Source: Mycoplasma mobile 163K
GTDB taxonomy: Bacteria > Bacillota_I > Bacilli_A > Mycoplasmatales > Metamycoplasmataceae
Reading direction: 5' to 3'
DNA length: 32,000 nt
NCBI RefSeq assembly: GCF_000008365.1
Contig: NC_006908.1
Span: 1 to 32,000, forward strand
Below the pieces are notes generated by a model that saw nothing but the letters and a program-made list of their open reading frames with translations, had not been told where the DNA came from and did no database searches. Every line of letters starts with the position of its first letter. Position 1 is the stretch's first letter. Shown here in pieces: positions 24,702 through 32,000 of the stretch. A program made the translations under genes and the position numbers.

Positions 24702-24734
24702 ATATTAATAATTTTTTTGAAATTATTAATATAA
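24702..24734 (-). terminator. Terminator hairpin after surface-protein copy A
   Basis: tatattaataatt-(7 nt)-aattattaatata: perfect 13-bp arms, 42 nt downstream of the copy A stop. Confidence 0.55.
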
Positions 24735-24775
24735 AGAAAGAAATTTCAGTTTTCAAAAATAGATTTATATGTTTG

Positions 24776-27118
24776 TTAAAGTTTATTTTTTGAAGATCTT
24801 TTTGACTTTATAGATTTTCATAAACTAAAAGAAGTAATTGCAACTACTAAAAAGCTAGCACTAATAGAACCTATAATTACAGGTAAATTATTGTTAATAA
24901 GAACATCAAATCCTAAAACAAGTCCTAAATCTTGATTTAAGATAAAATCTTTATTTGTAATTTCATTATTTACAACATTAGTATTAAATTCATTTACTAA
25001 ATTTCATTGAATTCTAATTTTTGCACTACCATTAGTTTTATTTGCTTCATAAATTTCTAAAAAATTTATTTTTGATAAGTATTCTAAATCTGAAATTATT
25101 AAACCTTTTAAAGCCAATTCTTTTTTAAATTCTTCGATTGATTTATTATTTCTACTAAATATTTCATTTTCAGGGGTAATTTTATTATTAATTTCCATTT
25201 TCATTTTTGAACTATCAAAATTTTGGAATCCTTTTATTTCAAAAGAGTTGAAAAATTCAAAACCTTTTTCTATTAATTGCAATATTGTTCGATTAAAATT
25301 AATTTTAATATTTGCACTTCCGTTTAAAATATCACTATTTGAAATTTCAATACTATCAATAGTTTTTTCGATTTCTGGATTTTCAAAATTTAATCCTGTA
25401 AATCTCAAATCTTTATTAAGATACATTCCATCAATAGCAAAAAAATTATTATTTGCATTAACTCATTTTGGATAGGATGAATTATTATTAATATTAACAG
25501 CTTTAAAAGAATTGAAAGGTGTTAAAAATTCATGAGAATAAGTTCTTATTTGCCTATCAACTTCTGAAAGAGAAAATTCCACATTTTCAAAATTAATTTT
25601 AATATTTGCTCTTCCGGTAATAAAATCACTTTTACTTATCTCAATTGATTTAATTTGTGTAGTCATAAAATCATTAACATTATTTAAAATAATTCCATTA
25701 GCATCAAATTGAGCTCTTGTATATATTCCATCTACAGAAAAAATATTATTATTAAAACTTAAATTATTTTCTACTCAATTATTAAAATTATTATCTTCTA
25801 ATTTTCTAAAGAAATAATTCATTGGAATTCTAATAATTGTTTTTCTAAAATTCTCAACAACATTTCCATTAGGAAGAGTTAGATTTTTTGGTACTTTTTC
25901 TACAAATAAATCTTTATAATTAATATTAACAAATCCTAAATTTGGATTTTGTCCTCCCTTAATCATATAAATATCGCTTAATATTTTATGAATTCTCTCT
26001 CCTAAAATTTTTTCAATTTCTAAAGGAGTATGAATCACTACTCCACTATTAAATGGTCTTGTGTTTAATTTTTGATTAATATATGTATCATCATATTCAA
26101 CATCAATAAAAAATCTATCTTCTATTTTTAAATTCACATCATTTTTCACAAAAAGATCTAATTTAGGAATACTTAAATTTCCTAATTCATTTTTAATACT
26201 TAATTTTTCTAAAAGTATTTCTAATTCATTTTTAGCTAATCTATTTTCTTGAGTATTAAAATATCTTTTAAAAAAGTCTTGTGAATATTCCATTTGTCTT
26301 AAATTTATTGGATTATTAATTTTATTTATAAATTCTTCTCTATTCACATTTTCATCAATATCAAATTTAACTCTTGAAGTATTTATTCTTATTAAATAAG
26401 TATAATCAAAACCATTATTATCAGCTCTTTGTTTTTTCTCTAATAAGAAAAATCCATTTTCAGTTGTAAATGTTTCAGGATTAATATTATTATAAGTAGC
26501 ATCAACAAAAAAACTACCAGCATAATCATTTGGAACTAAATCTTTGGGGCTTAAATTAGCATTTTTAAGTCCTACTAATAAGCGGTAAGCTGAAGATTGT
26601 TTGCCATGAGAATTTATACTATCTATCATTTCATTTGTTGGTATACTTGTAAATCAGTTAGAATTTCTACTTATATATGAATCGTTTGAATTTAAATAAG
26701 TTAAACCTATTAATCTATCTTGAATTGTTTCTTTTGTATAACGAAGATCTAATAGAGCAACATTGTTTTTTTGAATATCTTTAATTAAAGAAATATGTTC
26801 TTCTGCATTTCTTGGAATACTTAAATCTTTATTTAAAAGTGGTGAAACTAAAATTCTTTGAATTATTCTTACTGCTTCTTCATCTCTACTATGAGCATAT
26901 TCACTAGCATATTTATTATTTGTAGGAGCTAAAATTTCTGCAGATGAATTTTCTATAAAATTAGCATTTACCTTATTTTTATTTAAAGTAAAAGTTTCTT
27001 CTTGAATGAATTTTTCTTGTGATTTTTTAATTAAAATAACACCATTAAACAAAAAAGAACTTAATGCTAGAGTTCCACTAAAAAAGAAAATTGTTTTTAA
27101 AAGTTTATTTACCTTCAT
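24776..27118 (-). CDS. Large surface protein, copy A (780 aa): N-terminal signal/anchor, internal beta-module repeats, C-terminal TM anchor and basic tail
   Basis: Four track fragments (26654-27181, 25775-26629, 25463-25666, 25004-25426) share one frame. I translated all three gaps and the tail as open. Start is ATG 27118, preceded by GGAG. Stop is TAA 24776-24778. The C-terminus is LPVIIGSISASFLVVAITSFSLWKSIKSKRSSKNKL. Confidence 0.85.
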
Positions 27119-27160
27119 ATAACTCCATTTTGTTTGCAATATAAAAATTATATCAAAATT
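27119..27160 (-). promoter_or_regulatory. Promoter and SD of copy A (extended -10)
   Basis: The minus strand reads tTGaTATAAT (27155-27147) and GGAG (27126-27123) 4 nt before the ATG. The element is duplicated upstream of copy C. Confidence 0.5.
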
Positions 27161-30901: not shown

Positions 30902-30943
30902 ATAACTCCATTTTGTTTGCAATATAAAAATTATATCAAAATT
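30902..30943 (-). promoter_or_regulatory. Promoter and SD of copy C (duplicate of 27119-27160)
   Basis: Sequence identical to the copy A upstream element. Confidence 0.5.
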
Positions 30944-31004
30944 ATCTAATATGGTTTTCAACACTAATTTAAAGCTATTTCGCTAGTGCTTAATTCAAAA
31001 AATT

Positions 31005-32000
31005 TTATTTTTTACTTTTTTTTGACTTAATGAATTTTCATAAACTAAAAGAAGTAATTGCAACTACTAAAAAGCTAGCACTAATAGAACCTATAATTAC
31101 AGGTAAATTATTGTTAATAAGAACATCAAATCCTAAAACAAGTCCTAAATCTTGATTTAAAGTAAAATCTTTATTTGTAATTTCATTATTTACAACATTA
31201 GTATTAAATTCATTTACTAAATTTCATTGAATTCTAATTTTTGCACTACCATTAGCTTTATTTGCTTCATAAATTTCTAAAAAATTTATTTTTGATAAGT
31301 ATTCTAAATCTGAAATTATTAAACCTTTTAAAGCCAATTCTTTTTTAAATTCTTCGATTGATTTATTATTTCTACTAAATATTTCATTTTCAGGGGTAAT
31401 TTTATTATTAATTTCCATTTTCATTTTTGAACTATCAAAATTTTGGAATCCTTTTATTTCAAAAGAGTTGAAAAATTCAAAACCTTTTTCTATTAATTGC
31501 AATATTGTTCGATTAAAATTAATTTTAATATTTGCACTTCCGTTTAAAATATCACTATTTGAAATTTCAATACTATCAATAGTTTTTTCGATTTCTGGAT
31601 TTTCAAAATTTAATCCTGTAAATCTCAAATCTTTATTAAGATACATTCCATCAATAGCAAAAAAATTATTATTTGCATTAACTCATTTTGGATAGGATGA
31701 ATTATTATTAATATTAACAGCTTTAAAAGAATTGAAAGGTGTTAAAAATTCATGAGAATAAGTTCTTATTTGCCTATCAACTTCTGAAAGAGAAAATTCC
31801 ACATTTTCAAAATTAATTTTAATATTTGCTCTTCCGGTAATAAAATCACTTTTACTTATCTCAATTGATTTAATTTGTGTAGTCATAAAATCATTAACAT
31901 TATTTAAAATAATTCCATTAGCATCAAATTGAGCTCTTGTATATATTCCATCTACAGAAAAAATATTATTATTAAAACTTAAATTATTTTCTACTCAATT
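31005..32000 (-). CDS. Large surface protein, copy D (3' part; the 5' end lies beyond the window)
   Basis: Fragments 31224-31646 and 31683-31886 are identical in protein to copy C fragments at an offset of +2434 nt. TAA at 31005-31007. The tail ...SLWKFIKSKKSKK* is of the copy B type. The frame is still open at 32000. Confidence 0.8.

What the first reader, a model, noticed from the sequence alone, without database searches (positions are those of the whole stretch)
24729..32000. Rearranged array of about 780-aa double-anchored surface-protein genes built from a duplicated two-gene super-unit
Four copies of one gene lie head-to-tail on the minus strand, in the order D, C, B (fragment), A.
- Consecutive copies are 2434 nt (D to C) and 2437 nt (B to A) apart. 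That is one gene plus a 103-bp spacer carrying its own extended -10 promoter and GGAG.
- Two tail types alternate. A and C end ..WKSIKSKRSSKNKL and are followed by a small membrane-protein gene or its remnant. B and D end ..KFIKSKKSKK and are followed by the next copy.
- A single-residue marker (ANKTNG in A and B, ANKANG in C and D) groups the copies the other way.
- Together these patterns imply that a [type-2 copy, type-1 copy, membrane gene] super-unit was duplicated as a block and then damaged.
- Each protein has an N-terminal signal/anchor and a C-terminal TM helix with a basic tail, so nearly all of it should be displayed outside the cell.
- I could not place the family from sequence alone. 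This is the kind of multigene surface family that Mollicutes use for variation or host interaction.
Basis: partly seen in the sequence, partly recalled or inferred. Interest (0 to 1): 0.72.

Follow-up and report, generated by a model that had tools for sequence, protein, structure and literature searches.

The report
Mycoplasma mobile's known long-repeat gene array
This is the already annotated "long repeat" of the fish pathogen Mycoplasma mobile 163K: a head-to-tail array of nearly identical ~780-aa predicted membrane-anchored proteins with no relatives anywhere else and no known function, so the description is accurate but not new.

Summary
The window is the start of the Mycoplasma mobile 163K chromosome (code 4, dnaA at 197). 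Copies 2 and 1 lie beyond position 32000. The spacings (2437/2434 nt), the identical 103-bp spacers, both tail types, the ANKT/ANKA marker and the membrane-gene remnant were all verified. One 2,907-bp alignment (96.9%) supports the proposed block duplication.

Three points are added. Fragment B is closest to out-of-window copy 2, not to D. Divergence inside the duplicated block ranges from 0 to 0.18, and 53 of 231 informative site pairs are incompatible, so the array evolves by gene conversion. Variation is confined to a ~115-codon N-terminal cassette and the TM/tail.

The family is a strict orphan: no Pfam, NCBIfam, PDB, 1.84-billion-representative or metagenome relatives. The proteins have no cysteine, so they are not lipoproteins, and no lipoprotein-17 domain. 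No phase-variation switch was found: no promoter repeats, inversions or recombinase. AlphaFold models were unusable.

Verdict: already known, function unknown, low interest.

The parts
24206..24655 (-). Small membrane-protein gene M1 (149 aa, about four hydrophobic segments), immediately downstream of the last array copy
   Evidence: Code-4 ORF. Hydropathy peaks. No family hit in Pfam, NCBIfam, PADLOC or PHROGs.
24776..27118 (-). Copy A = long repeat protein copy 5 (780 aa, type-1 tail ...WKSIKSKRSSKNKL)
   Evidence: Identical to P0004 / AAT27508.
26549..26893 (-). Variable cassette of copy A (codons 76-190), the divergent island inside otherwise homogenised genes
   Evidence: 83.9% identity, JC distance 0.181 vs copy C. 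The rest of the gene is at 0.005-0.018.
27119..27221 (-). 103-bp inter-copy spacer with TGATATAAT (extended -10-like) and GGAG
   Evidence: 100% identical to 30902-31004. The motifs are read directly from the sequence. Their function is not tested.
27222..27624 (-). Fragment B: the 3' 403 nt of a type-2 copy (last 133 codons + stop). RefSeq annotates a 141-aa ORF from a TTG start (27222-27647)
   Evidence: P0007 is the annotated ORF. Closest to copy 2 (4 differences of 133, vs 14 to copy 3).
27625..28403 (-). Unique 779-bp insert that interrupts the array. Contains orphan ORF X (27622-28200, 192 aa) and ~200 nt of non-coding DNA
   Evidence: No similarity to the repeat or to the rest of the window. 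X matches only itself (P0008) in 5.8 billion proteins. No hits in Pfam, NCBIfam, PADLOC, PHROGs, phages or plasmids. An independent Logan contig reproduces 27595-28549 at 100%.
28404..28512 (-). Remnant of the M1 membrane gene (3' 109 nt; potential 34-codon ORF)
   Evidence: 86.2% identical to 24203-24311. The 410 nt in between (24312-24721) is deleted here.
28562..30901 (-). Copy C = long repeat protein copy 4 (779 aa, type-1 tail)
   Evidence: Identical to P0006 / AAT27510.
30902..31004 (-). 103-bp inter-copy spacer (second instance)
31005..32000 (-). Copy D = C-terminal 331 codons of long repeat protein copy 3 (776 aa, type-2 tail), cut by the window edge
   Evidence: The translation is an exact suffix of P0003 / AAT27511.

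Best explanation
The region is the 3' half of the 'long repeat' array of Mycoplasma mobile 163K. That array has five complete, co-oriented ~2,435-bp units plus one 3' fragment. Each complete unit encodes a ~780-aa cysteine-free protein.

SHOWN:
- Sequence identity to annotated copies 5, 4 and 3.
- The array geometry.
- A secondary block duplication of [3' end of a type-2 copy + spacer + terminal type-1 copy + membrane gene]. It later lost 410 nt of the membrane gene, and a 779-bp unique segment now lies at the junction.
- Strongly heterogeneous divergence within that block, and incompatible site patterns among the copies.

INFERRED:
- The proteins are bitopic or double-anchored membrane proteins. 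An N-terminal signal-anchor and a C-terminal TM helix with a basic cytoplasmic tail would expose about 700 residues on the cell surface.
- The array evolves in concert. Gene conversion or unequal crossing-over keeps the spacer/promoter, the first 75 codons and the last ~590 codons nearly identical. A ~115-codon N-terminal cassette and the TM/tail stay distinct and are reshuffled between copies.
- Every complete copy has the same promoter-like and ribosome-binding sequences, and there is no switch element. The copies are therefore most likely expressed together, as a set of isoforms that differ mainly in that cassette, and not one at a time.
- The biochemical role (adhesion or host interaction is the most plausible) is unknown.

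The confidence of 0.6 is for the whole statement. Identity with the known array is about 0.97, concerted evolution about 0.8, surface display about 0.7, and co-expressed isoforms about 0.6.
For: - Identity. A = AAT27508 (copy 5), C = AAT27510 (copy 4), D = suffix of AAT27511 (copy 3).
- Geometry.
- Block duplication: a 2,907-bp alignment at 96.9%, plus the M1 remnant at 86%.
- Concerted evolution: JC distances inside the block are 0 (spacer), 0.005 (codons 191-end), 0.018 (codons 1-75), 0.059 (fragment B vs D), 0.152 (M1 remnant) and 0.181 (codons 76-190).
- dS is 0.18 in the cassette vs 0.007 in the centre.
- 53 of 231 informative site pairs are incompatible among the five copies.
- Fragment B is closest to copy 2.
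- The variable-site map shows edge copy 1 as the most divergent.
- Topology: only two hydrophobic segments, a K/R-rich C-tail, and 0 Cys.
- No switch: no SSR in the spacers, no significant inverted repeats, no recombinase in the 32 kb.
- An independent sequencing run reproduces the insert and both junctions exactly.
- From my own knowledge, not verified here: the abstract of Jaffe et al. 2004 (Genome Res 14:1447) reports a ~2435-bp unit in five complete copies coding for 'nearly identical yet uniquely expressed proteins'.
Against: - Surface exposure rests only on hydropathy. No signal-peptide or topology predictor and no usable structure were available (AF2 pLDDT 31 and 39).
- The promoter motif cannot be distinguished from background in this AT-rich DNA (62 promoter-like sites found vs 70 expected).
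- dN/dS of about 0.6 in the cassette gives no proof of diversifying selection.
- The heterogeneous divergence could also arise from a recent duplication followed by import of divergent segments.
- DNA of copies 1-2 and of most of copy 3 was not available, so the mosaic analysis beyond 32000 is at protein level only.
Confidence: 0.6

Rival explanations
1. A classical mycoplasma phase- or antigenic-variation locus. One copy would be expressed at a time, with switching by promoter repeats, DNA inversion, or conversion from silent cassettes.
For: It is a multigene tandem family of predicted surface proteins in a Mollicute. Mosaic site patterns show that sequence is exchanged between copies. An A8 tract lies in the last codons of the type-2 tails (27233-27240 and 31016-31023).
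Against: - No lipobox: 0 Cys in all copies.
- The spacers are identical and carry no homopolymer or trinucleotide tract.
- All copies are co-oriented, with no flanking inverted repeats.
- No recombinase in the 32-kb window.
- All complete copies have an intact start, RBS and promoter-like motif, so none looks like a silent cassette.
- The A8 tract could only alter the last ~5 residues.
- The junctions are identical in an independent sequencing run.
- The published proteome reportedly detected each copy (own knowledge, not verified here).
Confidence: 0.1
2. A neutral or dosage-driven gene amplification. The array would simply raise the amount of one membrane protein. The N-terminal differences would be drift in segments that escape conversion, with no isoform-specific role.
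For: The central ~500 residues are almost invariant among the copies. dN/dS of about 0.6 in the variable cassette is compatible with relaxed constraint. The damaged fragment and the membrane-gene remnant show the locus tolerates decay.
Against: All five complete ORFs have stayed open for ~780 codons, even though cassette divergence (0.18) implies considerable age. The variation is sharply localised rather than scattered. The edge copies keep distinct N-termini that still retain a hydrophobic anchor.
Confidence: 0.25
3. A remnant of a mobile element or horizontally acquired island. The array, ORF X and M1 would be cargo of a degraded phage, ICE or defence island.
For: All three gene types are orphans with no homologues. 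A unique 779-bp segment sits at a duplication junction.
Against: No hits to PHROGs, PADLOC, phage or plasmid collections. No integrase, tRNA or Rfam element in the window. Base composition (GC 0.20-0.23) is typical of this genome's AT-rich regions.
Confidence: 0.05

Closest known systems
Mycoplasma mobile 163K 'long repeat protein copy 1-5' (GenBank AAT27508, AAT27510-AAT27513; genome paper Jaffe et al. 2004, cited from memory)
   Same: It is the same locus. Copies A and C are residue-for-residue identical to copies 5 and 4, and D is identical to the C-terminal part of copy 3. The period is about 2,435 bp.
   Different: Nothing differs in the object itself. This analysis adds the block-duplication junctions, fragment B's affinity to copy 2, the quantified signature of concerted evolution, and the orphan status against current databases. 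I could not check whether the paper already covers any of these.
Mycoplasma gallisepticum vlhA (pMGA) haemagglutinin multigene family
   Same: Large tandem arrays of ~2-kb co-oriented surface-protein genes, each with its own upstream region. Members are related by duplication and recombination (own knowledge).
   Different: vlhA proteins are lipoproteins and are switched by a GAA repeat upstream of each promoter, with one gene expressed at a time. Here there is no Cys or lipobox, no upstream repeat and identical spacers. No sequence similarity was detected.
M. mobile Mvsp surface proteins, Gli123 and Gli349 (lipoprotein-17 domain, PF04200)
   Same: Same organism, with abundant surface proteins built from ~100-aa repeats (bioRxiv 10.1101/2022.09.07.507039). 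The long-repeat proteins also contain two clear ~98-aa internal units and a possible third.
   Different: No PF04200 hit even at E<=10 on isolated units. The cited paper lists the domain only in 15 Mvsps, Gli123 and Gli349. The unit profile matches nothing in the PDB. The long-repeat proteins are not lipoproteins.
Concerted evolution of tandem paralogues by gene conversion or unequal crossing-over (a general phenomenon)
   Same: Near-identity of most of the unit, identical spacers, more divergent edge copies, and mosaic incompatible sites.
   Different: This is a process, not a family. Here a short internal cassette escapes homogenisation, and the reason (selection or chance) is unknown.

Membership tests
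M. mobile long repeat protein array | Protein sequences identical to the annotated 'long repeat protein' copies of strain 163K | tested here: met
   A == P0004 (copy 5), C == P0006 (copy 4), D is an exact suffix of P0003 (copy 3).
M. mobile long repeat protein array | Tandem unit of about 2,435 bp | tested here: met
   Spacings of 2434 and 2437 nt.
M. mobile long repeat protein array | Five complete copies, each expressed (proteomic evidence) | not testable with these tools
   Five complete copies are annotated. Only two and a half lie in the window. The expression claim is from memory of Jaffe et al. 2004, which was not retrievable.
Mycoplasma variable surface lipoproteins (Vsa/Vlp/Vsp/Vpma/VlhA type) | Lipoprotein signal peptide with a lipobox cysteine | tested here: not met
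   0 cysteines in all five proteins.
Mycoplasma variable surface lipoproteins (Vsa/Vlp/Vsp/Vpma/VlhA type) | A switch element: a simple-sequence tract in the promoter region, or inverted recombination sites with a site-specific recombinase | tested here: not met
   The spacers are identical and have no SSR. There are no significant inverted repeats. No recombinase domain was found among the window's ORFs. The region beyond 32000 was not examined.
Mycoplasma variable surface lipoproteins (Vsa/Vlp/Vsp/Vpma/VlhA type) | Only one or a few genes expressed per cell, with clonal switching | not testable with these tools
   This needs expression data.
Lipoprotein-17 domain proteins (PF04200; Mvsp/Gli123/Gli349) | A significant match to PF04200 | tested here: not met
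   No hit for the whole protein at E<=1 or for isolated units at E<=10. HMMER's filters may hide very weak matches.
MucBP_2 mucin-binding domain (PF17965) | A score at or above Pfam's gathering threshold (23.4 bits) | tested here: not met
   Unit 2 scores 16.2 bits, E = 0.015. This is a lead only.

The most novel reading that the evidence does not exclude
The long-repeat proteins are a species-specific surface family with an undescribed fold. Surface diversity would be generated by intra-array gene conversion that reshuffles a ~115-codon N-terminal cassette among five simultaneously expressed copies, not by on/off switching. That would be a 'standing isoform repertoire' mode of surface diversification, distinct from the known mycoplasma phase-variation mechanisms. 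The adjacent small membrane protein M1 might be a functional partner.
Probability: 0.2. Interest if true: 0.45.

Novelty: already known. Interest (0 to 1): 0.2.

Why it matters
As a discovery it does not matter much. The array is annotated in GenBank and RefSeq, and to my knowledge it was highlighted in the 2004 genome paper.

What remains of interest is that the family still has no homologue, domain, structure or function in today's databases (billions of proteins). It also gives a compact natural example of concerted evolution with an escaping variable cassette in a minimal genome. If the proteins are abundant surface components, they could bear on adhesion, host interaction or surface properties in the gliding model organism M. 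mobile.

Tried and rejected
1. Family placement. All of these returned no relatives:
- Pfam, NCBIfam, PADLOC and PHROGs on the full protein, on isolated regions, on ORF X and on M1.
- PDB sequences with the protein and with the internal-unit profile.
- The 5.8-billion-protein search with the protein and with the unit profile.
- Exhaustive phmmer against 1.84 billion representatives.
- Metagenome contigs.

2. Structure. AF2 on full-length copy 5 gave pLDDT 30.8. AF2 on the internal-unit alignment gave pLDDT 39.2. Both were too poor, so I ran no fold search.

3. DNA beyond 32000.
- Two genome-contig scans found nothing, so the genome is apparently not in that collection.
- Exact-protein look-ups for copies 1 and 2 and for fragment B found nothing on record.
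- Only ORF X gave a contig, 955 nt from Logan.

4. Literature. Jaffe et al. 2004 is not held by DOI, PMC id or PMID. Searches for 'long repeat protein', '2435 bp' and guessed MMOB locus tags found nothing relevant.

5. The promoter/terminator scan does not discriminate in this AT-rich DNA.

6. tRNA and Rfam scans of the window were empty.

7. The idea that the ~98-aa units are lipoprotein-17 domains was considered, from memory and, and rejected for lack of any match.

8. A mobile-element origin of the 779-bp insert was considered and found no support.
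Full report
**Organism and genetic code**

The window has 18-32% GC. Long ORFs appear only when TGA is read as Trp. Copy A contains five TGA codons and no TGG. The first two genes are dnaA (Bac_DnaA, E = 2e-41) and, from my reading of its translation, dnaN, which was not scanned.

A search with copy A against 5.8 billion proteins returned a single cluster. Its representative is named "long repeat protein copy 1 [Mycoplasma mobile 163K]" and comes from a 777,079-bp contig. The cluster holds the five annotated copies: AAT27513, 27512, 27511, 27510 and 27508, plus a RefSeq re-annotation of copy 1.

- C is identical to copy 4.
- The in-window part of D is an exact suffix of copy 3.

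The window is therefore the first 32 kb of the M. mobile 163K chromosome. The finding is the 3' half of its annotated "long repeat" array, and copies 2 and 1 lie beyond position 32000.

From my own knowledge, the genome paper (Jaffe et al. 2004, Genome Res 14:1447) states in its abstract that a ~2435-bp unit occurs in five complete copies coding for nearly identical yet uniquely expressed proteins. I could not retrieve that paper to verify the wording.

**Check of the observation**

- Copies start 2437, 1349 and 2434 nt apart.
- The two inter-copy spacers (27119-27221 and 30902-31004) are 103 bp and 100% identical. They carry TGATATAAT, and GGAG 7 nt before the ATG.
- The tail types and the ANKTNG/ANKANG marker are as described.
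- A 149-aa membrane-protein gene (M1, 24206-24655) follows copy A. A 109-nt remnant of its 3' end (28404-28512, 86% identical) follows copy C.
- Hydropathy finds only an N-terminal and a C-terminal hydrophobic segment in every copy, the latter followed by a K/R-rich tail.

**Anatomy and history**

A single 2,907-bp alignment links 24722-27624 to 28510-31407 at 96.9% identity. It pairs [fragment B + spacer + copy 5 + ~50 nt downstream] with [3' end of copy 3 + spacer + copy 4 + ~50 nt downstream]. After a 410-nt deletion, homology resumes in the M1 remnant.

The two tail types differ by a small indel at the last codons. Beyond that point the sequences diverge into either the spacer or the array's downstream flank. 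So the type-1 tail marks the end of the repeat unit, that is, a terminal copy.

Between the remnant and fragment B lies a unique 779-bp segment (27625-28403). It contains an orphan 192-aa ORF, X. X matches only itself in the big database and nothing in Pfam, NCBIfam, PADLOC, PHROGs, phages or plasmids. A contig from an independent sequencing run (Logan SRR29904084) matches 27595-28549 at 100%. The insert and both its junctions are therefore real, and they were unchanged in that sample.

**Concerted evolution**

Divergence inside the duplicated block is very uneven.

| Segment | JC distance |
|---|---|
| Spacer | 0 |
| Codons 191 to end | 0.005 |
| Codons 1-75 | 0.018 |
| Fragment B vs D | 0.059 |
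| M1 remnant | 0.152 |
| Codons 76-190 | 0.181 |

Synonymous divergence is 0.18 in the cassette and 0.007 in the centre. So the contrast reflects different coalescence times, not just different constraint.

Across all five proteins, variable sites concentrate in residues 1-225 and in the TM/tail. Of 231 pairs of informative sites, 53 are incompatible with any single tree.

Fragment B differs from out-of-window copy 2 at 4 of 133 residues, but from copy 3 (D) at 14. Its ANKTNG marker is shared with copies 2 and 5. Copy 1, at the edge of the array, is the most divergent (85-88% to the other copies).

These are the expected marks of gene conversion or unequal crossing-over. Most of the unit is homogenised, while a short N-terminal cassette escapes and is shuffled. 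dN/dS in the cassette is about 0.6, which does not show positive selection.

**What the proteins are**

No family could be assigned.

- Pfam and NCBIfam give nothing for the full protein or for separate regions. The only sub-threshold line is MucBP_2 on internal unit 2, at 16.2 bits against a 23.4-bit cut-off.
- phmmer over 1.84 billion cluster representatives finds only a 141-aa protein that is fragment B itself.
- A profile of the internal units finds only the same protein.
- PDB sequence and profile searches are empty.
- A metagenome scan confirmed no relative.

The proteins contain two clear ~98-aa tandem units (z = 8.1) and a weaker third.

M. mobile's known ~100-aa surface repeat is the lipoprotein-17 domain, PF04200. 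A paper reports it in 15 Mvsps, Gli123 and Gli349 (bioRxiv 10.1101/2022.09.07.507039). The long-repeat proteins give no PF04200 match and are not on that list.

They have no cysteine, so they cannot be lipoproteins.

AlphaFold2 gave unusable models: pLDDT 30.8 for the full length and 39.2 for a unit. I therefore did no fold search.

**Mechanism**

The best-supported reading has three parts.

1. The proteins are membrane-anchored and largely extracellular. This is inferred from hydropathy only.
2. Five co-oriented genes encode them, each with the same promoter-like and ribosome-binding sequence. They would therefore be expressed together as isoforms.
3. Gene conversion maintains and slowly reshuffles the array.

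The classical phase-variation reading is not supported. The spacers are identical and free of simple-sequence tracts. There are no meaningful inverted repeats and no recombinase among the window's ORFs. No copy looks like a silent cassette.

The only homopolymer of note is an A8 run in the last codons of the type-2 tails. It could affect at most the last few residues.

The promoter scan itself does not discriminate in this AT-rich DNA: 62 sites were found against 70 expected. Promoter function therefore remains an inference.

**Verdict**

The feature is already known and annotated, and its function remains unknown. Interest is low. The remaining value lies in the family's strict orphan status and in the clean signature of concerted evolution.

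Noticed in passing
window 18298-21331 (+): A vitamin-B12-dependent class II ribonucleotide reductase (NF005991, 1528 bits) is directly followed by an ATP:corrinoid adenosyltransferase (PF02572, E = 5e-39). The local GC is higher (0.27-0.31) than in the neighbouring 0.19-0.21 regions. This is an unusual pair for a mycoplasma and may have been laterally acquired.
   Followed up: partly
window 22567-23049 and 23219-23707 (+): A tandem pair of paralogous genes (160 and 162 aa; 85% identical over 300 nt). Both carry a Trp-rich 'STWDWQW' motif. The first copy had no Pfam hit; the second copy was not scanned. This is a second small tandem duplication just upstream of the array.
   Followed up: partly
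window 21463-21822 (-), 21577-21664, and 23816-24068: A small coiled-coil-like ORF contains a perfect 33-nt tandem repeat (2.7 copies, 100% matches). Degenerate inverted copies of parts of this gene (72-76% complementary) lie 2-2.5 kb away. They bracket the tandem paralogue pair.
   Followed up: no
window 27622-28200 (-), ORF X, and L001: ORF X (192 aa) is a strict orphan. Its stop codon coincides with the junction to fragment B, and the RefSeq fragment-B ORF (TTG start at 27647) overlaps it by 26 nt. The only other place it was found is a 955-nt Logan contig (SRR29904084), 100% identical to 27595-28549 and ending about 30 nt into repeat DNA on each side.
   Followed up: yes
beyond the window: copy 1 (P0001 vs P0002): The GenBank protein for copy 1 (781 aa) starts at MKIIFLVG. 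The RefSeq version (787 aa) starts at MKVNKILK, which restores the MKVNK start shared by all the other copies. The original start call was probably 6 codons short.
   Followed up: partly
window 27233-27240 and 31016-31023: An A8 tract (T8 on the + strand) lies inside the last codons of both type-2 tails. Type-1 and type-2 tails differ by a small indel just here, which shifts the frame across a shared AAAAAATAAA.
   Followed up: partly
window 16318-17952 (-): A 538-aa putative lipoprotein (signal ending VVAC) with a periplasmic-binding domain (PF13407) lies next to an ORF (14730-16298) that looks like a sugar ABC-transporter ATPase, judged only from my reading of its N-terminal translation and not scanned. 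By position it may be MMOB0150, the 'xylose solute binding protein' named in PMC7052211. The locus-tag mapping was not verified.
   Followed up: no
window 197-2848 (+): The window starts with dnaA (Pfam-confirmed) and a following ORF I read as dnaN (not scanned). The long-repeat array therefore begins only about 25 kb from the chromosome's annotated start and presumed origin.
   Followed up: partly
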